Source of the DNA: Polyangiales bacterium
Lineage (GTDB): Bacteria; Myxococcota_A; Polyangia; Polyangiales; Ga0077539
Direction of reading: 5' to 3'
Length of the DNA stretch: 64,000 bases
Assembly (NCBI GenBank): GCA_046351535.1
Contig: JAXLYG010000016.1
Span: forward strand, 128,670-192,669
Made by a program: the position numbers and the translations under genes. Position 1 is the stretch's first letter, and every line of letters starts with the position of its first letter. The notes below the pieces were generated by a model that was not told where the DNA came from, ran no database searches, and worked only from the letters and a program-made list of their open reading frames with translations. Shown piece by piece: positions 1 to 8,315 of this stretch.

Positions 1-351
1 TCGGTCTGGGAGCTCCAGCATCAGGCGGTGCAATTGCATCGACGGGTCAGCGAGGCTCTTCACTCGGCCCAGGTGTGCTCTTTCGGCTGGTACCAGGAGC
101 CGCCTCCCGCTCCGGATCTCAGCGAGGAGGAGGACGCGGGAGAGGCGCAGCCCTCGGATGCGACGCGAGATGCCGCCGAGGTCGAGCAGATGGAGCGGGA
201 AGACACCTGGATTCGCGCCAGTGTTCTCGGGCTAATCCCCAGTTTCGACAACGTCCACAACGGCGTCCTCGCGCTCGATGTTTCGCTGATGGCCGCGCTG
301 TCTGGAGCTGTGCCGCTACGAGCCGACCTCGCTTCGATCTCGGCGCGCTGA
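1..351 (+). CDS. hypothetical protein, C-terminal fragment entering from the left window edge
   Basis: The frame is open from nt 1 to the stop at 349-351; the listed ORF 28..351 is only its internal GTG part. The centre is acidic and low-complexity (SEEEDAGEAQPSD). No motif recognised. Confidence 0.25.
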   Translation, partial: SVWELQHQAVQLHRRVSEALHSAQVCSFGWYQEPPPAPDLSEEEDAGEAQPSDATRDAAEVEQMEREDTWIRASVLGLIPSFDNVHNGVLALDVSLMAALSGAVPLRADLASISAR

Positions 352-786
352 GTGAGTTCGGTTGGGTGGCTGACTGCTTCCGTCACCCCGCGGGGGAATT
401 CTGCGGCGCCTTCAGATGGCTGTTTGGCCTGAATATGCGCTTCGTGCCCGGCTCACGAGTTGATGGTTTTGCCATCACGGGGAACGGGCTACGCGGCAGT
501 GATCCTGTTCAGCGCTTTCTCAGACGTCACGTCTTCCCACGGCCTCTGGCTGCGCGGAGGGGCGGAATATCGGTTCCAGCGGTGGGGATTCTCCGCGAAT
601 CTGGATCTGACCGTTGGATCGTCGATTTTCGGGGATAGTACGTATTGGCACGGAGGGGTGGTACTTGGGGTGTTTGTGTTAAATCCTTTGTAAATCAAAT
701 CAACGTACGGCACACGTTTGATGAGTTCAGAGAAATTGCTAGAGAATTCTGCGAATCTGATTCTCCGTGCAGTTTAATCGTCAGAA

Positions 787-1153
787 TCAGTTGTGCGATT
801 TTTCGCAGGTAAGTATCACACAGATAAATTGAGACTCTGGAGCAGCAACCAATCGGTACGGTCCCCCATTCGGGTCGGAATCGTACGCATAGAAGCCGCG
901 TTCTGCCATCAACCACCACGCATTTTGCAGTTGAGATGTCATCAGGGGAGCGAATTTCCGCTTTAGTAATTGCTGAGATGCAAGTATCGTATCGATAGCA
1001 ACATCGTAAGACTCCGTTGTATCGCGTAAAAAACGCCGCGAAGGAGCAAACTTCGCCTCCAGCGGTGCTAAGCATCGCCACATTGCCTGCCTCATCACAG
1101 GCAAGCCAGTCAAATCTGAAACCAAGAATATCATCAGGCAACTTGTTCATCAT
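787..1153 (-). pseudogene. candidate immunity protein for the upstream T6SS effector, split over two reading frames
   Basis: ATG-ATG at 1153 starts 2 nt after the effector stop (1156-1158). The N-terminal part reads in the 695..1240 frame (MMNKLPDDILGFRFDWLACDEAGNVAMLSTAGGE). The rest is protein-like only in the 787..1134 frame (LRDTTESYDVAIDTILASQQLLKRKFAPLMTSQLQNAWWLMAERGFYAYDSDPNGGPYRLVAAPES). The span is 367 nt, i.e. 122 codons + 1 nt. An A6 run at 1028-1033 sits at the frame switch. Confidence 0.45.
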
Positions 1154-1155
1154 CT

Positions 1156-2274
1156 TCACGGTGGTGTTGTGTCGGAGCGAAATTGCGTCACAGGATCGGG
1201 AAAGGCATTGCGACCAAAAGTGGACTCGCAATTCACGCAAACGTCAACAGGTTTTAACGTCCTTGGCCTGATTGCTTGGGTGAATTGAATGTCTGTTGGA
1301 TTCCCGAGTGTCTCGGAACAAACTGTCTCTGCATAACCGAGTCCCCGTCCGCGACTCGCAGCGGCGGTGACCCCACCAGTGGACGGAGAGTAAGCACTAA
1401 CGACCGTCGCTGGAGGATGGCGCGACTGCGAGTTCCGATGCCAGAGTATCGCGCGCAACAGTTGCCTGTTCGTAGAGACTTGGTCTGGATTGTGCCGGTT
1501 GGTGGTGCTCGATGCTGCGCGATGCGAAGACGCCCCGCCATCCACGATCGAGAGACGAACCTATACTCCTCCCAGAATTCCACCTAAAATAGCACCACCA
1601 ACAGCCTCACTTACCCCACCTCGATCCAAGTTTGCCACCGAGTCGCGAGCCGACATATCCCCGAACAACGAAAGAGCGATGCGCGTCAGTGTCCATCCAG
1701 CTGCGCGCAGGGTAGCCCCAGGCCAAGAAATCCAAGAGCGAGTACAAGCCACGAGAGCCACCTCGAACTTCACTAGATACGTTCTGCGCATCGAACAGTT
1801 CCTCCGCCAATCCAAACGTCGTTCGATCCGCTCCCAATCGAACTTCCACATGTGTTTGCATCGTCCTGCGGGCCGCAGGCAATTGTGCAATAAAGACATT
1901 TCCGCTTCCATCAGTGATGACTGGAGCGTTGCTGTGCTGATGACAATGCACCAGACTCAGTCACCGTGCGGCCGTGCAAGATGATTAATCCACACGGTCG
2001 GGGCACCGAGAGCAATAGTGCCCTCCATGGTGCTCATGGTCGAACCAGCCAATTGCCCTGGGTAATCCTGCCCGATTGAAGCTCCGGTCGCGACTGCTCC
2101 CACAATCGCCAATATAGGCGCCACGGCGAGCTCCCCGCTAAGAACGTGGTGGCGATAGCGCTGGCAACAAACAACGCCCCCGTACTAACGCACTGAGCAA
2201 CAACCTCTCACCAGTCCGGTGAGGGCGCGAGTGTGTGTTATGTAGTCGCTGACCCGTGCTGCTGGAGGACCCAT
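1156..2274 (-). pseudogene. prePAAR/PAAR-domain T6SS membrane-associated effector with a C-terminal toxin region; reading frame disrupted
   Basis: ATG 2274 gives MGPPAARVSDYITH, matching the prePAAR motif AARxxDxxxH (2233-2262). Downstream, in shifting frames, I read: Gly/Ala-rich TM helices (VVAQCVSTGALFVASAIATTFLAG; LAVAPILAIVGAVATGASIG); PAAR-type motifs GAPTVWINHLARPHGD (1960-2004) and GSGNVFIAQLPAAR (1868-1909); a glycine-zipper helix AVGGAILGGILGGV (1564-1605); and a ~130-codon C-terminal region ending at TGA 1156-1158. The start and the final stop are in the same frame (1119 nt). In-frame stops at 2185-2187, 1957-1959 and 1561-1563, plus several apparent frame switches, interrupt it. 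Confidence 0.55.
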
Positions 2275-2728
2275 TGGTAGTTACCTGTTCGATTACACCT
2301 CGCGAAACACGATCGAATCGAGAAATGTCTGCCAAGTTGCTGCGTAGCGATCGAACGTCTGGACGTACGCTGAGCGTAAAAGCCAAACACAAACCTTGAA
2401 GGCTGACCATCACTTGACGTTGAAGCACGGTTTGTCGATCGGGAGTCTTCCACGTGTAGGCGAACTCGACTCCCCGTTCCCCCCCCACCTCAGACACTCT
2501 CCGTTCGATGAGCCGGTACGATTGTAACTGCTGTGCTGCCTCTACGAGTTTGTGATCGGCAAATGCGTCCAAATTACCGTCAAGAAGGCTTTCCCTCGAA
2601 ACAGTAATCGTCGCAGTCCCTCTCCCATCCCGAGATGGAAAAGAGAAAATATTGATACTCTGGTCCTGGCACTCTTCAGGAATCTCGAGATTCGCCTCGT
2701 GAATGTAATACGTCATCTCATTCCTCAC
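2138..2728 (-). CDS. DUF1795/Eag-family T6SS effector chaperone (adaptor)
   Basis: MTYYIHEANLEIPEECQDQSINIFSF...TVSRESLLDGNLDAFADHKLVEAAQQLQSYRLIERRVSEVGGERGVEFAYTWKTPDRQTVLQRQVMVSLQGLCLAFTLSV fits the DUF1795 pattern as I remember it. The GTG start overlaps the vgrG stop (GTGA, 2725-2728). The last ~50 codons (after ADISRFDR) overlap the effector start and look non-native, so the true 3' end may be near 2297. Confidence 0.7.
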   Translation of the reverse strand: MRNEMTYYIHEANLEIPEECQDQSINIFSFPSRDGRGTATITVSRESLLDGNLDAFADHKLVEAAQQLQSYRLIERRVSEVGGERGVEFAYTWKTPDRQTVLQRQVMVSLQGLCLAFTLSVRPDVRSLRSNLADISRFDRVSRGVIEQVTTNGSSSSTGQRLHNTHSRPHRTGERLLLSALVRGRCLLPALSPPRS

Positions 2729-5157
2729 GTGCAGTTCAGATAGAGACCCGCGAGACCATCGATCGAGATGTGGTTCTTGGCCATGACAGTGATGTCGTCA
2801 TTGGCAGCAACGTGAATTGTACCCCCCGTGAGAATCACTGAAGACAGCGGGGAATTATCTCCTCCGATCTCAACTTTGATCGTGCCATCCCACACAGTGA
2901 TTGAACTCTTGCCGACCACCAGTTTGATCTCCTGTCCCGCGTCGATGAGCACGTTCTTCGCAACTCTCAAAGTATCACTTGACGGTGCAGGATGTTCACC
3001 TCCGCGCGAGCCGACGTCCGTCGTTCGGTTACCCGTGATCGTATTGACTTGCGTGCCACCAACGCTGGCAGTCTCGTTATTCAGAACGACCGAATCCATG
3101 TTGTGCTGCGCGCGAAGGTACAGCCGCTCCCTGCCTGCCTCGTCTTCGAACGTCAGCTCGTTGTGGCCACCGTTTCCGCTCGCACGGGGCGTGCTCTCGG
3201 AGCGGAAGGTCGTGTGAGCCTTTCGGGCCGGAAGGTCGAGGTGCGACCTCGCCGTGCCATTGTAGACGCAGCCTGTGACGAGCGGTCGATCGGGATCGCC
3301 TTCGAGGAAGCTGACGACGACTTCCATTCCAACGCGAGGGAGCGTGAACGCGCCCATCCCGCCGCCCGCCCATGCCTGGGCGACACGCACCCAGCACGAA
3401 GAACGCTCCCGGCGTTGAGACTCGGTTCGCAGCTCGTCCTGGTCCCAGTGGAACCGCACGAGCACCCGACCGTGATGGTCGACGTGAATCTCCTCGTTGG
3501 AGTCTCGCTCGGCCGAGACGATCGCGGTCTGTGAACCGTGGATGACGGGGCGGGGCGTCACCCGTTGCGGTCGGAACACCGTGCTGGTCGGGATACACTC
3601 CGCAATGTTCTGATATCGCTCTTCATCCGTTGCTGGACGTCGTTCGACCTCATGGGCGACCGCCTGAGGATTCAGCGCCCGGTGCACGACGGATGTGATC
3701 AGATAGGTCTGGTCGAGCGAGGGGTCGGCGTGGCCGTCGAGATGAAACCTCAATCCAGGGCGCATCCCAGGCGCATTGGTGCTGACGGTCGCTCTGGCGC
3801 CGTCGACCTGCTCGCTTTGCAGCCGAATGTCCGCGAGACGAGAGCCGTTGCTGTTCGTGTAGCCGCGTTGACCATCGTGGTAGCCGTGAAGCACATGGCG
3901 GCCGGGATATTCGTGAAGTCGACGCCTGGAGCTCGACGAACCCGCCGATTTTCTGTGGGTCATGCCCTGCTCCAGCAGTTGCGGGCGCGTCGCATCCCAG
4001 TCTCGGCTCTGGTACGACGTCGGACGAAGCTCCTCGGCCCAGTCGACGTTGGTTGCATGCTCGGTGTTCGACGTCGCCGCGCCGTGAGTTCCGACCTGCA
4101 ACGTGGAACCGCCGACGATCTGAGCTTCCTCGTAGCTGGTAGCTTCAATCCCGTCGAAGATGACGAGGGTCTCTTCGTCTTCAGCGTGTTCGAAGAAGAA
4201 GGTCAGGCCCTCGTCCTCCAGCAGCCGCATCACGAACGCGAGGTCGGTCTCGTTGTACTGGACGCAACAATCCCGCAGCGGGTGCAACGACTCGTTGGCG
4301 CGCACATCGAGCCGCTCGCCGGGATACATGTTCTCCGCGTCTCGTAGGACTTCGCGCAAGATCCCGATGACGTTGAGGTTCTGAAAGGTCCGGCAATGCG
4401 TGCGCTGGGTGAGGTCCCACAGTTCAGGGACGACCTTCACACGAACCCGCACCTGGTTGTTCAGCGCGGAGAGCCTCTGAATCGATCGAACGACGCCCGT
4501 CGTGAAATGGGGAGTTCCCCCTTCGCGGGAGAGCGTAAGCGTCGCGCGCTCCCCGAGCAGGCTTCTTGGTTGTGGGAACTCCTCGGTGGAGAGGAGATCG
4601 AGCGTGCCTTCGTAGAGCCCCGACATGCGCTCTTCGATCTCGACGCGATGGACGCTCCAGCCAGACAGACTGAACGCGAAGTCGACCTCTGGAATCGGCG
4701 CCCCCGCCTCGGCCAGCGCCGCGGCCGCTTGCGGTGGAACGTTCAGACCAGGTCGATTTTGGAGAAGGGCACGGGCCGACGATCCGGCTGAGATCGCGGT
4801 ATCCAACAGTTCAGCCGCTTGCTGAGCCTGAGGGGGAAGCACGCCCGTCGCGGCGATCGTCGTCGAAGCGATGTTCGCCACCGAGGACGCGGAGATACCT
4901 TGGGTGGCTACCCGGCTCATCCCGGAGATTGCGGCTTCAGCACCGCCGATGGTCGCAGCGATGGTGGGCGCCCCGACCGCTGTCGCCACAGTTTGGAGCG
5001 TGGGACCCTGGAGAAGGCTAGAAGCGGAATCTGCGACCAGACCGCCGATGGGAGGCACACCCGCCGCGGCTGCTTCCGCTGCGATGTCGGGGTGCTGTTC
5101 CGGCCCGGTCACCAGATCACCCGGACGGACAGGAGGTCGGCCGTCAGTGTTCCCCAT
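2725..5157 (-). CDS. vgrG: type VI secretion system spike protein VgrG
   Basis: Conserved VgrG core, including HVDHHGRVLVRFHWDQD...SSCWVRVAQAWAGGGMGAFTLPRVGMEVVVSFLEGDPDRPLVTGCVYNG, followed by a C-terminal beta-helix-like repeat region. The ORF is open to 5457; ATG 5157 (MGNTDG) is the first plausible start. About 170 Ala/Gly/Thr/Ile-rich residues precede the conserved core. Confidence 0.9.
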   Translation of the reverse strand: MGNTDGRPPVRPGDLVTGPEQHPDIAAEAAAAGVPPIGGLVADSASSLLQGPTLQTVATAVGAPTIAATIGGAEAAISGMSRVATQGISASSVANIASTTIAATGVLPPQAQQAAELLDTAISAGSSARALLQNRPGLNVPPQAAAALAEAGAPIPEVDFAFSLSGWSVHRVEIEERMSGLYEGTLDLLSTEEFPQPRSLLGERATLTLSREGGTPHFTTGVVRSIQRLSALNNQVRVRVKVVPELWDLTQRTHCRTFQNLNVIGILREVLRDAENMYPGERLDVRANESLHPLRDCCVQYNETDLAFVMRLLEDEGLTFFFEHAEDEETLVIFDGIEATSYEEAQIVGGSTLQVGTHGAATSNTEHATNVDWAEELRPTSYQSRDWDATRPQLLEQGMTHRKSAGSSSSRRRLHEYPGRHVLHGYHDGQRGYTNSNGSRLADIRLQSEQVDGARATVSTNAPGMRPGLRFHLDGHADPSLDQTYLITSVVHRALNPQAVAHEVERRPATDEERYQNIAECIPTSTVFRPQRVTPRPVIHGSQTAIVSAERDSNEEIHVDHHGRVLVRFHWDQDELRTESQRRERSSCWVRVAQAWAGGGMGAFTLPRVGMEVVVSFLEGDPDRPLVTGCVYNGTARSHLDLPARKAHTTFRSESTPRASGNGGHNELTFEDEAGRERLYLRAQHNMDSVVLNNETASVGGTQVNTITGNRTTDVGSRGGEHPAPSSDTLRVAKNVLIDAGQEIKLVVGKSSITVWDGTIKVEIGGDNSPLSSVILTGGTIHVAANDDITVMAKNHISIDGLAGLYLNCT

Positions 5158-5675
5158 CGAGTCGTGTTCCCCGGCGAAAGGTTGGCAGGGGGAGGTGTTG
5201 ACCGCCCCGCACGTCGGTGATCGGCACGCAGTGTCCGAATCCCGAGTTCCGGTGTCAAGCGGAATTGAATATCGAGCTATCTTCTCGCACGGCTCCGCCT
5301 CTCGGGTGCGCACCGTCGACCATCCCAGGTCGTTAACGGTGGCTCTGAGTGCCGCAGAGAATCGCTGCGATGTCGCCGCTCGTCGCGACGAGCGGGACGC
5401 ATCCAAGCTGCTCGCCGCCGTGCAGCACCCGGCGCTCGGCACTGCGCGGGCAGCCATCCAAGCGTTCTCTCACTGCCCGCGCCACATCCCGCACTGTCCT
5501 CCGCGCATCTCCCTCTGTCCCTCTGCAATCCTCATTTGACCGCACGCAATCTCCATCTGTCTCGCTTCCTACCGCCACTGAATCGCCTCGCTTCCCGCGC
5601 TGTTCGCGCGCTTTCCCCTCGCGCGCTGCTCTCTGCTGGCGCCGCGCGGTGCGTTTCGCGTAGCGTGCGGACGCC

Positions 5676-8315
5676 GTGAGCACCGACGCCAACAACGACT
5701 CGCAGGACCTCCACCCCGGCGACGAGTTACCCGGCGCACACCGCGTCGACGAGGAGCTCGCCAACGGCCGCCTCGGCGCGGCCTACGTCGTCGTCAACAG
5801 CGACGGCGAGCGACGCGTCGGGAGCGTCCTTCACCGCGAGCACGTGGCCGATCTGGGTGAGTGGTTCCTCGCGGCGGCCGTGCTGCGACAGGGGATCGTG
5901 CACCCGCACATGCCCCGCACCTTCGCCACCGGAACGCTCCCCGATGGACGTCCCGTCGAGATCACGGAGCTCCTCGAAGGCGAGAGTCTTCGCGAGGCGG
6001 TCATCAACCGCACGGTGCCGCTCCCGCTCGCCGTCGTGGCGCGGGTGATCCGCGAGGTGGCCGACGCGCTCGACGATCTGCACAAGCGCACGCCGCCCAT
6101 CGTTCACCGCGCGCTCACGCCCGACAACGTGCTGCTGACCGCGCCCGACGGGCTCGTGAAGCTCCTCGGCGTGGGCGAAGCCGACAGGCCGAGAATCGAC
6201 GCGGTTCGCTCGGCCTACCAGTCACCCGAAGCGCTCGCGGACATCGCGTCGCTCACGCCGCGCGCCGACGTGTTCGTGCTCGCGTCGCTCGCGTTCGAAG
6301 CGCTCACCGGACGCCACGCCTTCTCGGGGACCGCCGACGAGGTGCTCGGATCGCTGCACTCCGGCGCGCGTCCGAGCGTGCGCGCGCTGCGCGACGAGGT
6401 CCCCGCGGCGGCCGACGAGGTGCTCCATCGGTGCTGGGAGCTCTCGCCCGAGAAGCGCCCCGCGACGGCTGGAGAGGCCGCGAAGGCGCTCAGCGCGGCG
6501 CTCGGCGTGATCGACACGGGCGAGGTCTCGATCCCCGACGAGCCCACGGGGAGCGTCGCGGCCCCCTTGCGCGTCGTGCGTCGTCGCAACGCGCTCCTCG
6601 GGCCCACGGTCGAGACCACGCGGCCCGACGTGAAAGACCCGCGGAGCTTCCTCGAGAACGTCGAGCGCACGGAGGTCTCGACGCCCGCCGTTCCCGCGCC
6701 TGCGCCGGTGATTCCGCGCGCCGACGCCGCGCCGCGCGTCGAGAACGTCCCGAAGACCGAGGCGTCACCGAAGACCGAAGCGTCACCGAAGACCGAGAGC
6801 GCACCCCGCCCCGAGCCCGCGTCTCGCGCCGAACCCGTGTCTCGCGCGGAGGCAGCCCCGCGCGCCGAGCCCGTGGCGAAGACCACGTCGGAGCGTCCTC
6901 CGCCGAAGGGTGCGGTGCCTCGCTCGGGGGCCGTGCTCCGCGCGTCGAAGGGAGCCGTGAGCGCCGCGCACCCGAGCGCCGCGGAGACCTCGTCGGAGCC
7001 CACCGATCGCAACGTCGACACCTTGACGGCGAAGCCCGCGGCGACGCTCGTGACGCCTCCGCGCGACGAGGCGAAGGGCCCGCGCAGAGAGTCCGCGCGA
7101 ACGCTCCACGACACGCTCGACACCTCGGCGCCCGTCGATGCGCCCGCGCCCGTGGCGTCGCCCGCGTCGCCCTTCTCCGACGATCCGCGCGCGACGCTCC
7201 AAACCACGCTCGAAGGCGTCGGAGCCATCCCCGCACCCGCGCCCGAGGAGCCCGCGCCGAAGCCCGTTCAAGCCGCGCAATCGCCCTTCAGCGCGCCGAC
7301 CATCCCGACGATGCAGGGCCTCGCGGCGCCGCCGCAGAGCGATGCCGACGAGCGCCCCACGCCGGGCTCCTCGACGCTCAAGGGAGTCCCCGCGGCGCAG
7401 CCTCCCGCGGAGGCTCCGTCACCCGTCGCGCCCGCGGCCTCCCACGCGCAGCCGCAGCGCGCCGAGAGCCCCGCGACGCTGCCGCTGCCGCACTCGCCCG
7501 ACACGCTCCGCTCCCCGCGCAGGGCTACGCGCAGGGCGCACCGTTCGCGAGCGCGCCGCAGCCCGCGCAGCACCCGTCGCCCTCACCGAGGCCCGCGCCG
7601 TATCCGCTCCCGCAGAGCGCGCGCTTCGCAGAGCGCACAGGCGCAGTACGCGCCGCAGCCGCAGGCCGCACACGCGCAGCCGCAACAGCCGCAGAGCGCA
7701 CACGCGCAGCCGCAGGTCGCGCAGCCCGCACACGCGCAGCCGCAGGTCGCGCAACCGCAGGTCGCGCAGCCGCAGGTCGCGCAGCCCGCACACGCGAGCG
7801 CCGCCTACGCCCAGGCAGCGCTCGCGCAGCCGCAACACGCGCAGGCGTCGCTCCTCCAGAGCACGCCCGCGCCGGGAGGCATCCCCGAGGCGAGGCCCAT
7901 CACGCGGCGCGTCGCGCACGCGGTGAGGGCGCCGGACGAGGTGGCCTTTCCCGACGAGCCCACGGGGGCCTACGACCTCGAGTCGGCGAAGCCCTCGCCG
8001 TGGCGCTCTCCGTGGGTCATCGCGTCGATCTTTCTCGCCAACGCGATCGTGATCGTGGGCGTCGCGCACGCCATCGCGCTCGCCGCGTCGCGCGAGCCGA
8101 TGATCCGCGTGGTGCAGGGCCCCGCGCCCGTGTGCGCCCCGTGTGCCGCGTGTCCCATCGAGCGCGCCGTCGCGCCGACGCCTCCGCCCGCGCCGCAGCA
8201 GCAGGTGCTCACGCAGCGCGTGGAGGCGCCGTCACGGCCGACGTCCTCGGCGCCGCGACGCGCCGGCGGGATCATCCGTGAGGTGCCCGCGTTTGGCGCG
8301 CCGCGACGTCGGTGA
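5676..8315 (+). CDS. Hanks-type kinase-like protein lacking catalytic residues (predicted pseudokinase), with a Pro/Ala/Gln-rich linker and a C-terminal TM helix
   Basis: The kinase-fold landmarks are present but degenerate. RRVGSVL replaces VAIK. IVHRALTPDN replaces HRDLKPxN (6105-6113 encode H-R-A). LGVGEA replaces DFG (6168-6176). YQSPEAL replaces APE. TM helix WVIASIFLANAIVIVGVAHAIALAA. GTG start. Confidence 0.85.
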   Translation: MSTDANNDSQDLHPGDELPGAHRVDEELANGRLGAAYVVVNSDGERRVGSVLHREHVADLGEWFLAAAVLRQGIVHPHMPRTFATGTLPDGRPVEITELLEGESLREAVINRTVPLPLAVVARVIREVADALDDLHKRTPPIVHRALTPDNVLLTAPDGLVKLLGVGEADRPRIDAVRSAYQSPEALADIASLTPRADVFVLASLAFEALTGRHAFSGTADEVLGSLHSGARPSVRALRDEVPAAADEVLHRCWELSPEKRPATAGEAAKALSAALGVIDTGEVSIPDEPTGSVAAPLRVVRRRNALLGPTVETTRPDVKDPRSFLENVERTEVSTPAVPAPAPVIPRADAAPRVENVPKTEASPKTEASPKTESAPRPEPASRAEPVSRAEAAPRAEPVAKTTSERPPPKGAVPRSGAVLRASKGAVSAAHPSAAETSSEPTDRNVDTLTAKPAATLVTPPRDEAKGPRRESARTLHDTLDTSAPVDAPAPVASPASPFSDDPRATLQTTLEGVGAIPAPAPEEPAPKPVQAAQSPFSAPTIPTMQGLAAPPQSDADERPTPGSSTLKGVPAAQPPAEAPSPVAPAASHAQPQRAESPATLPLPHSPDTLRSPRRATRRAHRSRARRSPRSTRRPHRGPRRIRSRRARASQSAQAQYAPQPQAAHAQPQQPQSAHAQPQVAQPAHAQPQVAQPQVAQPQVAQPAHASAAYAQAALAQPQHAQASLLQSTPAPGGIPEARPITRRVAHAVRAPDEVAFPDEPTGAYDLESAKPSPWRSPWVIASIFLANAIVIVGVAHAIALAASREPMIRVVQGPAPVCAPCAACPIERAVAPTPPPAPQQQVLTQRVEAPSRPTSSAPRRAGGIIREVPAFGAPRRR
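6750..6803 (+). repeat. 18-nt in-frame tandem repeat x3 (PKTEAS PKTEAS PKTESA) inside the pseudokinase linker
   Basis: ccgaagaccgaggcgtca / ccgaagaccgaagcgtca / ccgaagaccgagagcgca, read directly. Confidence 0.9.
7650..7800 (+). repeat. degenerate in-frame tandem repeats encoding (AHA)QPQ(V/S)AQP units
   Basis: Blocks of gcacacgcgcagccgcaggtcgcgcagccc recur at ~7668, 7698 and 7728, plus shorter ccgcaggtcgcgca units. Confidence 0.8.

What the first reader, a model, noticed from the sequence alone, without database searches (positions are those of the whole stretch)
1156..2274. Eag-dependent prePAAR effector that appears to be decaying (or is mis-assembled)
MGPPAARVSDYITH fits the prePAAR motif AARxxDxxxH, which defines T6SS effectors that need DUF1795/Eag chaperones (Tse6-type architecture: prePAAR, TM helices, PAAR, second TM region, toxin). 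All of these parts can be read here in the right order, directly downstream of vgrG and an Eag gene. They can only be read by hopping between frames, and three in-frame stops (2185-2187, 1957-1959, 1561-1563) interrupt the frame that joins the start and the stop. No ORF caller would report this gene, so it is invisible in the ORF track. Either the cargo of an intact vgrG-eag pair is a fresh pseudogene, or this low-GC stretch carries assembly indels.
Basis: partly seen in the sequence, partly recalled or inferred. Interest (0 to 1): 0.7.

Follow-up and report, generated by a model that had tools for sequence, protein, structure and literature searches.

The report
Frame-broken T6SS deaminase effector cassette
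Downstream of an intact vgrG spike gene lies a type VI secretion cargo set (chaperone, small prePAAR/PAAR effector with a deaminase-like toxin tip, immunity gene) whose three genes are all broken by many one- or two-base frame slips, so it is either a dead relic or a badly called stretch of the assembly, and ordinary either way.

Summary
On the minus strand, ATG 2274 to TGA 1156 spans 373 codons with in-frame stops at 2187-2185, 1959-1957 and 1563-1561. The parts of a small, two-TMD prePAAR effector are spread over all three frames: AARVSDYITH, a hydrophobic region, PAAR, a second hydrophobic region, and a toxin. This is the Tse6 type, called class II by Ahmad et al. 2020.

Joining the frames raises the Pfam PAAR score from 18 to 48 bits (cut-off 27). 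At least 6 frame switches are needed, and about 11 by homology.

The C-terminal 107 aa belong to a polymorphic-toxin tip family of 380 clusters with no Pfam, NCBIfam or PDB sequence match. The family's predicted fold resembles cytidine and blasticidin-S deaminases (CAE...PVCxxCE). The window copy has Tyr in place of the zinc-ligand Cys.

The eag gene is also frame-broken near 2372, and the immunity gene (1153-695) is broken 2-3 times. vgrG and the 5.6 kb beyond it are clean.

No independent copy of the cassette exists in any collection I could search, so real decay and consensus error cannot be separated. The lesions are small slips in both directions, outside the long homopolymers, with no large deletions and little substitution load. 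That pattern leans slightly towards consensus error. The confinement to cargo genes and the Cys-to-Tyr change lean towards real decay.

The parts
2725..5457 (-). vgrG spike gene, an uninterrupted 910-codon ORF. The canonical VgrG part begins near codon 250. The upstream Ala/Gly-rich part has no family match, so the true start is uncertain.
   Evidence: Pfam Phage_GPD 1-302/305 (236 bits), Phage_base_V and Gp5_trimer_C. No frame switch is needed. 31% identical to the VgrG of locus L018.
2293..2716 (-). eag chaperone gene (DcrB/DUF1795 family), frame-broken near 2372. The last ~25 aa (YVQTFDRYAATWQTFLDSIVFREV*, stop 2295-2293) are in the next frame. As written, the ORF runs on to 2138, over the effector start.
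   Evidence: As written: PF08786 72.9 bits, profile 1-112/127. With one base skipped: 77.8 bits, 1-127/127, 141 aa. The intact 141-aa Eag of L018 ends ...EWDRAFATIVESFRLRE*.
1156..2274 (-). Class II (Tse6-type) prePAAR effector, 373 codons from ATG to TGA, broken by at least 6 and probably about 11 frame switches.
2233..2262 (-). prePAAR motif AARVSDYITH (residues 5-14).
   Evidence: PF25799 scores 24.0 bits on the raw N-terminus.
2068..2226 (-). Hydrophobic TMD region 1 (ALTGLV...LAVAPILAIVGAVATGASIGQ), read across 2-3 frame switches. It contains TAG 2187-2185 and a G5 run at 2181-2177.
   Evidence: Kyte-Doolittle mean above 2 over 19 aa, matching the position of the first hydrophobic region of P0002. 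Frame path.
1790..2022 (-). PAAR domain split over frames 1, (2), 0 and 2. Two TGAs lie 4 nt apart (1963-1961 in frame 0, 1959-1957 in frame 1). There is a one-base gap between PAAR (..cgc) and QDD (ag gac gat) at about 1865.
   Evidence: PAAR_motif 47.6 bits when joined, 18.4 bits for the best single frame. 69% identical to the PAAR fragment P0153 from Massilia and 34% to P0002.
1567..1796 (-). Linker and TMD region 2. NVSSEV is in frame 0 (1796-1765) and matches VNGEV / VADEV of relatives. RWLSWLVLALGFLGLGL is in frame 2, VGSRLGGKLGSRWG in frame 0, and GGAILGGILGG in frame 1 (1599-1567).
1159..1484 (-). C-terminal toxin domain with a predicted cytidine-deaminase-like fold. Helix 1 is in frame 0 (1484-1427) and the core is in frame 1 (1425-1159). 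The family motifs are CAE and PVCxxCE.
   Evidence: 75% identical to P0001. The family has 380 clusters. AlphaFold2 pLDDT 93.2. The listed Foldseek PDB hits were almost all cytidine or blasticidin-S deaminases, with a few other deaminases in the tail of the list. 174 bits against a subfamily HMM built without the window.
1333..1335 (-). TAT (Tyr) where the family has the Cys of the CAE motif, the presumed zinc ligand. TGT to TAT is one transition.
   Evidence: Column composition is 129 Cys, 5 Ala, 1 His and no Tyr among 135 relatives. This is the only mismatch of the window in 35 columns that are at least 80% conserved.
695..1153 (-). Immunity gene. Homologues of 141-148 aa lie directly after the toxin in eight metagenome loci. 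The window copy is frame-broken near 1055 and 835, and possibly near 763.
   Evidence: tblastn and frameshift-aware alignments, 50-55% identity in the central part. No Pfam or NCBIfam match.

Best explanation
What it is (shown): the cargo module of a vgrG island. An Eag (DUF1795) chaperone gene is followed by a small class II prePAAR effector and its cognate immunity gene. The effector consists of a prePAAR motif, TMD region 1, a PAAR domain, TMD region 2 and a ~107-aa C-terminal toxin with a cytidine-deaminase-like fold.

How an intact version would work (inferred from the Tse6/Tne2 paradigm, PMC7773334): Eag shields the hydrophobic helices in the producer. prePAAR plus PAAR cap the VgrG trimer. 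The T6SS fires the spike into a neighbouring cell. The TMDs take the toxin across the target's inner membrane, where it deaminates a nucleic acid or a nucleotide. The immunity protein protects sister cells.

State in this sequence (shown): none of the three cargo genes can be translated as written.

Cause (inferred, a slight lean only): most of the frame slips are errors of the consensus sequence in a low-GC, strain-variable island that lies within 2.4 kb of the window's first base. They are probably not mutations accumulated in the cell. On this reading the real locus is much less broken and possibly intact apart from the Cys-to-Tyr change.
For: Identity: (motif, PAAR, TMDs, Eag). L018 is an intact relative with the same vgrG-eag-effector-next gene order. 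Toxin and immunity families.

For the error reading, the lesion spectrum does not look like natural decay.
- About 15 slips of one or two bases, in both directions (7 skips of one base and 4 of two in the effector), at about 1% density.
- No deletion large enough to shorten any domain. The effector has 373 codons against 381 in P0002, Eag is 141 aa against 141, the immunity gene is full length, and the PAAR and toxin profiles are covered end to end.
- The long homopolymers G8 2486-2479, T6 1033-1028 and G5 867-863 are supported as in frame (A5 803-799 only weakly), although they should be the first to slip in vivo.
- There is little substitution load. The toxin matches the family consensus at 34 of 35 conserved columns (the median relative misses 3) and scores mid-range among real subfamily members.
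- The frameshift-aware path needs no nonsense codon.
Against: - The breaks are confined to the three cargo genes. There are none in the 2.7 kb of vgrG, including its low-GC 3' end, and none in the first 340 nt of eag.
- The adjoining 5.6 kb agrees with three independent short contigs (L001, L002, L003) without any frameshift-type difference.
- Pfam domains elsewhere in the window are full length.
- Homopolymer-driven long-read error, the commonest kind, is not what is seen.
- The single conserved-site substitution hits the presumed catalytic zinc ligand and is unique among 136 sequences. That looks like a real inactivating mutation.
- I do not know the sequencing technology. If the assembly is from short reads only, indel noise at this density is not credible.
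- I do not know whether window position 1 is a contig end.
Confidence: 0.5

Rival explanations
1. A genuine, fairly old pseudogene cassette. The effector lost function, perhaps first through the Cys-to-Tyr change in the toxin's zinc site. After that the effector, its chaperone and its immunity gene drifted and collected small indels. vgrG stayed under selection as a spike for other cargo.
For: - Lesions occur only in cargo genes, and vgrG and the flanks are clean.
- A catalytic-site substitution is unique in the family. The immunity gene also differs at an invariant position, NTW to NAW.
- The island is accessory. It is absent from a 97%-identical relative, whose homology ends at 5476, and it has a foreign composition of 47-57% GC against about 71%.
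- The long homopolymers are correct, which argues against typical long-read noise.
- Most public assemblies are short-read based (my own knowledge).
Against: - About 15 indels should come with roughly 50-150 substitutions, given bacterial indel-to-substitution ratios of about 0.1-0.3 (my own knowledge of mutation-accumulation studies). Yet conserved positions are almost untouched and no unavoidable nonsense codon is seen.
- There are no larger deletions despite the deletional bias of bacteria.
- The slips avoid the homopolymer runs where natural slippage concentrates.
- The breaks are denser in the effector's N-terminal 850 nt than elsewhere (about 11-13 against 0 in the 270-nt toxin core). 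My rough hand calculation, using the upper counts, puts the chi-square p at about 0.03. Neutral decay does not predict this. The excess may partly be over-calling in the glycine- and alanine-rich TMD stretches.
Confidence: 0.4
2. The slips are real but were produced by an unusual, local, indel-biased process rather than slow neutral decay. Candidates are repeated error-prone repair of breaks in this island, or recombination among diverged paralogous carrier regions.
For: This would reconcile many small slips with few substitutions, and with their concentration in the prePAAR-PAAR-TMD carrier part.
Against: I know of no such mechanism that acts on T6SS cargo. There is no second copy of the cassette and no repeat in the window. 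Recombination between intact alleles does not create frame slips.
Confidence: 0.05
3. There is no gene here. The motifs are chance matches in GC-rich DNA, or the breaks are programmed recoding sites of a functional gene.
For: Ala-, Gly- and Arg-rich peptides arise easily in alternative frames of GC-rich DNA. The TMD stretches are ambiguous as to frame.
Against: - The joined PAAR scores 47.6 bits, E 2e-12.
- The toxin is 71-75% identical to relatives and scores 174 bits.
- The immunity gene is 50-55% identical to genes that follow the toxin in eight loci.
- The gene order is the same as in L018.
- Six to thirteen recoding events in one gene have no precedent. The intact relatives P0002 and L004-L010 need none.
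Confidence: 0.02

Closest known systems
Class II prePAAR effectors: Tse6 of Pseudomonas aeruginosa and Tne2 of P. protegens, with chaperones EagT6 and EagT2 (Ahmad et al. 2020, PMC7773334)
   Same: An AARxxDxxxH motif in the first 15 residues. Hydrophobic regions on both sides of a PAAR domain. Small size (373 codons) with no Rhs cage. A DcrB/DUF1795 eag gene immediately upstream and vgrG before that. A toxin at the C-terminus followed by an immunity gene.
   Different: The toxin is a deaminase-fold domain. Tse6 and Tne2 are NAD(P)+ glycohydrolases (my own knowledge). The host looks myxobacterial from its gene content (inference), which is outside the mainly proteobacterial range described. 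Above all, it is not an open reading frame.
P0002 and its locus L018 (NCBI GCA_043753975.1): an intact vgrG, 141-aa Eag, 381-aa prePAAR/PAAR effector and 191-aa next gene
   Same: The same gene order and the same effector architecture. About 34% identity over the prePAAR-TMD-PAAR-TMD part. The Eag length is the same.
   Different: It has a different C-terminal toxin and a different downstream gene. All its frames are open.
Interbacterial deaminase toxins DddA (BaDTF1), SsdA (BaDTF2) and BaDTF3 (PMC7901873, PMC12494967, PMC13346905)
   Same: Deaminase-fold toxin tips delivered between bacteria, with cognate immunity. DddA is itself listed among prePAAR effectors (PMC7773334).
   Different: No sequence match to any Pfam, NCBIfam or PDB entry. 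The best structural matches are the small three-cysteine cytidine and blasticidin-S deaminases, not these toxins, and they are weak (Foldseek E 0.04, TM 0.55-0.59). The substrate is unknown.
Polymorphic-toxin tips on Rhs/YD-repeat and PT-HINT proteins
   Same: In relatives the same ~107-aa domain is the extreme C-terminus of RHS-repeat, teneurin-like YD-shell and PT-HINT proteins of up to 4962 aa. It is followed by the same immunity family.
   Different: Here it is carried by a PAAR-type class II carrier instead of an Rhs cage.

Membership tests
Class II prePAAR effector (Ahmad et al. 2020) | AARxxDxxxH motif near the N-terminus, just before the first TMD | tested here: met
   AARVSDYITH is at residues 5-14 and is followed by ALTGLV....
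Class II prePAAR effector (Ahmad et al. 2020) | Profile match of the N-terminal ~60 residues. The paper used its own Tse6-derived HMM with a 40-bit threshold. Pfam PF25799 is used here as a stand-in. | tested here: inconclusive
   24.0 bits on the raw 29 aa and 18.5-19.5 bits on frame-joined readings. The curated cut-off is 25. The intact relative P0002 scores 28.9.
Class II prePAAR effector (Ahmad et al. 2020) | PAAR domain (PF05488) | tested here: met
   47.6 bits against a cut-off of 27, but only after joining three frames. The best single frame scores 18.4 bits.
Class II prePAAR effector (Ahmad et al. 2020) | TMD regions both N- and C-terminal to PAAR, small size, no Rhs repeats | tested here: met
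   Hydropathy peaks at residues 17-71 and 171-197 of the joined reading, as in P0002. 373 codons. No RHS hits. The frame assignment inside the TMDs is uncertain.
Class II prePAAR effector (Ahmad et al. 2020) | [quoted passage not shown] | tested here: inconclusive
   GGAILGGILGG (GxxxxGxxLxG) at 1599-1567 fits. The Asp follows five residues later, not three, and only after a frame switch.
Class II prePAAR effector (Ahmad et al. 2020) | Co-occurring Eag chaperone gene (Pfam DcrB PF08786) | tested here: met
   Directly upstream. 72.9 bits as written and 77.8 bits with full profile coverage after one base is skipped.
Class II prePAAR effector (Ahmad et al. 2020) | An open reading frame able to give the protein | tested here: not met
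   Three stops in the start-to-stop frame. At least 6 frame switches are needed to avoid stops, and about 11 to follow the homology.
Class II prePAAR effector (Ahmad et al. 2020) | Eag-dependent stability and T6SS-dependent export | not testable with these tools
   Needs co-purification and competition assays.
Cytidine-deaminase-fold (CDA superfamily) toxin | Deaminase fold with a [CH]AE helix and a PCxxC zinc site | tested here: met
   For the family: E of CAE is nearly invariant (128 of 135), both Cys of CxxC are present in 134 of 135, and Cys of CAE in 129 of 135. AF2 pLDDT 93. The listed Foldseek PDB hits were almost all cytidine or blasticidin-S deaminases, probability up to 0.97, E 0.04, TM 0.55-0.59. 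These are weak scores, so the fold assignment is probable, not certain.
Cytidine-deaminase-fold (CDA superfamily) toxin | Complete zinc-ligand set in this copy | tested here: not met
   The window has YAE instead of CAE (TAT 1335-1333). No relative has Tyr there.
Cytidine-deaminase-fold (CDA superfamily) toxin | Deaminase activity and its substrate | not testable with these tools
   Needs an enzyme assay on an intact family member.
Eag / DUF1795 chaperone (PF08786) | Full-length match to the family profile in one frame | tested here: not met
   As written, the match stops at profile position 112 of 127. The last 15 positions are in the next frame.

The most novel reading that the evidence does not exclude
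The slips are real and come from a local, indel-biased scrambling of a self-toxic deaminase effector cassette after its catalytic cysteine was lost. That would be a mode of toxin-gene silencing or decay not described for T6SS cargo. A separate, more modest point: the toxin and immunity families are uncurated. They have 380 clusters and no Pfam or NCBIfam model. They may represent an uncharacterised clade of small three-cysteine deaminase toxins.
Probability: 0.05. Interest if true: 0.65.

Novelty: new member of a known kind. Interest (0 to 1): 0.3.

Why it matters
For this genome the practical point is annotation. An ORF caller would report a chaperone with a false C-terminus, several meaningless short ORFs, and no effector or immunity gene. 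The locus should be marked as a disrupted eag / class II prePAAR effector / immunity cassette, and checked against reads before it is counted as a pseudogene.

If the breaks are consensus errors, the organism carries a working deaminase-type T6SS effector in a lineage that looks myxobacterial. prePAAR effectors have hardly been described there. If the breaks are real, this is an ordinary example of accessory weapon cargo decaying behind a retained spike gene.

The by-product of wider use is the toxin-immunity pair itself. It is a compact (~107 aa) deaminase-fold tip found on Rhs, PT-HINT and PAAR carriers. It has a conserved partner protein and no curated family model. Small bacterial deaminase toxins have been a source of base-editing enzymes.

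Tried and rejected
1. Looking for an independent copy of the locus, which would have settled error against decay.
- Exact look-ups of the Eag ORF (two starts), vgrG (three starts), five cassette ORFs and the neighbouring kinase-like gene found nothing on record.
- A protein search with the repaired Eag gave no hit at all.
- Searches with the joined effector found only distant relatives: P0001, P0002 and P0153.
- The metagenome scan with the toxin alignment gave 75% identity at best.
- The genome scan with effector peptides found nothing.
- The genome scan with the adjacent kinase-like gene found only hits of 30% identity or less, so neither the source organism nor a close relative could be named.
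- Samples that hold 97-99.7%-identical flanking DNA (L001-L003) gave no cassette sequence, and L001 lacks the island.

2. Homopolymer-type sequencing error as the cause. Rejected as the main mode, because the G8, T6 and G5 runs are in frame (A5 probably) and the run census is as expected from composition.

3. Window-wide indel noise. Rejected.

4. A second copy of the cassette in the window that could confuse assembly or polishing. None found.

5. Excess substitutions at conserved toxin positions as a test for relaxed selection. The only mismatch is the Cys-to-Tyr change, and the score is mid-range. This gives no positive evidence of decay and has limited power.

6. Assigning the toxin or the immunity protein to a curated family. 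No Pfam, NCBIfam or PDB sequence match.

7. Identifying the ORF pieces at 1-713 on both strands. No Pfam match.

Full report
**Observation.** On the minus strand an ATG at 2274-2272 and a TGA at 1158-1156 are in the same frame, 373 codons apart. The reading begins MGPPAARVSDYITH, and AARVSDYITH fits the prePAAR pattern AARxxDxxxH. The definition is from Ahmad et al. 2020, PMC7773334. The three-frame translation shows the other expected parts in other frames.

**Is it more than chance?** Yes.
- The raw 29-residue N-terminus scores 24.0 bits (E 4.7e-5) on Pfam prePAAR_I, just under the cut-off of 25.
- The best single raw frame scores 18.4 bits on PAAR_motif.
- A reading that joins the frames scores 47.6 bits (E 2e-12, profile 7-68 of 70, cut-off 27).
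- A frameshift-aware alignment that I wrote follows two intact relatives through the three frames. The 381-aa relative P0002 (PF25799 + PF05488) covers prePAAR to the second hydrophobic region. The Rhs tip P0001 covers the toxin.
- A partial PAAR protein from Massilia (P0153) is 69% identical over the PAAR middle and end. It confirms a short frame-0 excursion, NVSSEV, which matches VADEV and VNGEV in the relatives.
- Hydropathy of the joined reading gives hydrophobic regions on both sides of PAAR (residues 17-71 and 171-197), as in P0002.

**Extent of the damage.**
- Without any homology, at least six frame switches are needed to read from start to stop while avoiding stop codons. vgrG needs none.
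- Following the homology takes about 11 switches: 7 skips of one base and 4 of two. My reading of the hydrophobic stretches would add up to two more.
- Two TGAs lie four bases apart (1963-1961 in frame 0, 1959-1957 in frame 1). Only frame 2 is open there.

**The damage is not limited to the effector.**
- The upstream DcrB/DUF1795 gene (eag, ATG 2716) matches its Pfam profile only to position 112 of 127 as written.
- Skipping one base near 2372 brings in YVQTFDRYAATWQTFLDSIVFREV* (stop 2295-2293). That gives a 141-aa protein with full profile coverage. Its end resembles the end of the intact 141-aa Eag in locus L018.
- Downstream, the gene at 1153-695 is the homologue of a 141-148-aa gene that directly follows the toxin in eight metagenome loci. 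The window copy needs frame skips near 1055 and 835, and perhaps near 763.

**Surroundings.**
- vgrG (2725-5457) is an unbroken 910-codon ORF with full-length Phage_GPD, Phage_base_V and Gp5_trimer_C matches.
- The cassette and the 3' end of vgrG have 47-57% GC. The whole window is 71% GC, and this is its only low-GC stretch.
- An activated-sludge contig (L001) is 97% identical to window 11101-5476 and then continues with unrelated genes. So the vgrG island is accessory.
- Over those 5.6 kb, and in two further short contigs (L002, L003) that are 98.7% and 99.7% identical, no frameshift-type difference occurs. The only indels are in a repeat tract and sum to a multiple of three.
- Ten other large ORFs give full-length domain matches or none. 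Window-wide indel noise is therefore excluded.

**The toxin.**
- The last ~107 residues match no Pfam, NCBIfam or PDB sequence.
- A profile search of 1.84 billion representative proteins found 380 clusters. The matched domain is almost always at the extreme C-terminus. The carriers are RHS-repeat, YD-shell and PT-HINT proteins. This is the signature of a polymorphic-toxin tip.
- The family conserves CAE and PVCxxCE.
- An AlphaFold2 model of the relative P0001 tip, built with a 48-sequence family alignment, has mean pLDDT 93. The listed Foldseek matches in the PDB were almost all blasticidin-S and cytidine deaminases. The scores are weak: E 0.04, probability up to 0.97, TM 0.55-0.59.
- I therefore call it deaminase-like. 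Its substrate is unknown.
- The window copy has TAT (Tyr) at 1335-1333 in place of the CAE cysteine. Among 135 relatives that column is Cys 129, Ala 5, His 1.
- This is the window's only mismatch in the 35 columns that are at least 80% conserved. The median relative has 3 mismatches.
- The frame-joined domain scores 174 bits against a subfamily model built without it. That is in the middle of the genuine members.

**Mechanism of an intact version.** This is inferred from the Tse6/EagT6 and Tne2/EagT2 work summarised in PMC7773334. Eag holds the hydrophobic helices in the cytoplasm. prePAAR completes the PAAR fold, which caps VgrG. The TMDs help the toxin cross the target's inner membrane. The immunity protein neutralises the toxin in kin. 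Locus L018 shows the same vgrG-eag-effector-next gene order with open frames. None of this is testable here, and this copy cannot be translated as written.

**Real decay or consensus error?** I found no second copy of the cassette anywhere, so only internal evidence is available.

Points towards error:
- About 15 slips of one or two bases, in both directions, at about 1% density.
- No deletion that shortens a domain.
- The long runs G8, T6 and G5 in frame (A5 probably), although both natural slippage and most sequencing chemistries fail there first.
- Very little substitution load.
- A position within 2.4 kb of the window's first base, which may be a contig end.

Points towards real decay:
- Strict confinement to the three cargo genes next to a clean vgrG and verified flanks.
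- The one conserved-site substitution removes the presumed zinc ligand.
- Homopolymer-type long-read error is not what is seen.
- Most assemblies are short-read based (my own knowledge).

My rough likelihood estimates swing either way depending on assumed indel-to-substitution ratios and on the unknown technology. I put consensus error at about 0.5, genuine decay at about 0.4 and something odder at about 0.05-0.1.

**Comparison with what is known.** In all testable respects but one, this is a class II prePAAR effector in the sense of Ahmad et al. It has the motif, PAAR, two TMD regions, small size and an adjacent Eag. It fails the requirement of an open frame. Two softer features are inconclusive: the N-terminal profile score and the r4 glycine motif. 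The toxin differs from the NADase of Tse6 and Tne2. It has no sequence match to the characterised deaminase toxins DddA, SsdA and BaDTF3. The gene content of the window suggests a myxobacterium (several Ser/Thr kinases, STIG1-like cysteine repeats, a TPR-MerR protein, 71% GC). That is an inference only.

**Verdict.** The finding is real and correctly identified, but ordinary in kind: a disrupted T6SS cargo cassette, or a poorly called stretch of one. Interest is low to moderate. The most useful follow-up is a read-level check. The most reusable by-product is the uncurated deaminase-like toxin and immunity pair.

Noticed in passing
window 2293-2716 (-): The eag chaperone gene is itself frame-broken near 2372. 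Its conserved C-terminal ~25 residues are in the next frame. As written, the ORF reads through to 2138, over the effector start.
   Followed up: yes
window 695-1153 (-); L004 6267-6710, L005 1365-1811, L007 1314-1739, L008 403-846, L009 5317-5754, L010 216-641: A conserved immunity-like family of 141-148 aa (motifs DWL..D..G.V..FSTAG, NTW..AERG.FA.DSD..GGPYRL) with no Pfam or NCBIfam model always follows the toxin. The window copy is broken 2-3 times and has NAW in place of the invariant NTW.
   Followed up: partly
window 1159-1484 (-); proteins P0001, P0003-P0152: The toxin belongs to an uncurated ~107-aa deaminase-fold family (CAE...PVCxxCE) of 380 clusters. The family sits at the tips of RHS, YD-shell and PT-HINT proteins of up to 4962 aa.
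   Followed up: partly
window 5476 (boundary); L001 5552 onward: The vgrG island is absent from a 97%-identical activated-sludge contig. Homology stops at 5476, and L001 continues with LysR and PNPOx genes that are not in the window. The other island boundary lies beyond the window start.
   Followed up: partly
window 4700-5457 (-): The vgrG ORF has an Ala/Gly-rich N-terminal extension of about 250 codons with no family match and irregular codon-position GC. The true start may be further downstream.
   Followed up: partly
window 1-693 (+): ORF pieces in frames 1, 3 and 1 (28-351, 75-638, 460-693) have a beta-strand-like C-terminal part and no Pfam match. This may be another frame-broken gene convergent with the immunity gene, or two small genes. 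If it is broken, the bad stretch extends beyond the cassette.
   Followed up: partly
window 7509-7768 (+), inside the gene at 5676-8315: The kinase-like gene carries a Pro/Gln/Ala repeat tract (AQPQVAQPAH...) that is 75 nt longer than in L001. This is in-frame length variation between close strains.
   Followed up: no
window 1957-1963 (-): Two TGA codons lie four bases apart in two different frames (ggTGAcTGAgt), just after the first PAAR-like AAR. Only the third frame is open. This means either two slips or one slip plus a nonsense change.
   Followed up: partly
window 9272-34827: The neighbourhood has several Ser/Thr protein kinases, a STIG1-like Cys-repeat/DUF7305 protein, a MerR-TPR protein, and no T6SS core genes. 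This looks like an orphan vgrG island in what appears to be a myxobacterial genome.
   Followed up: partly
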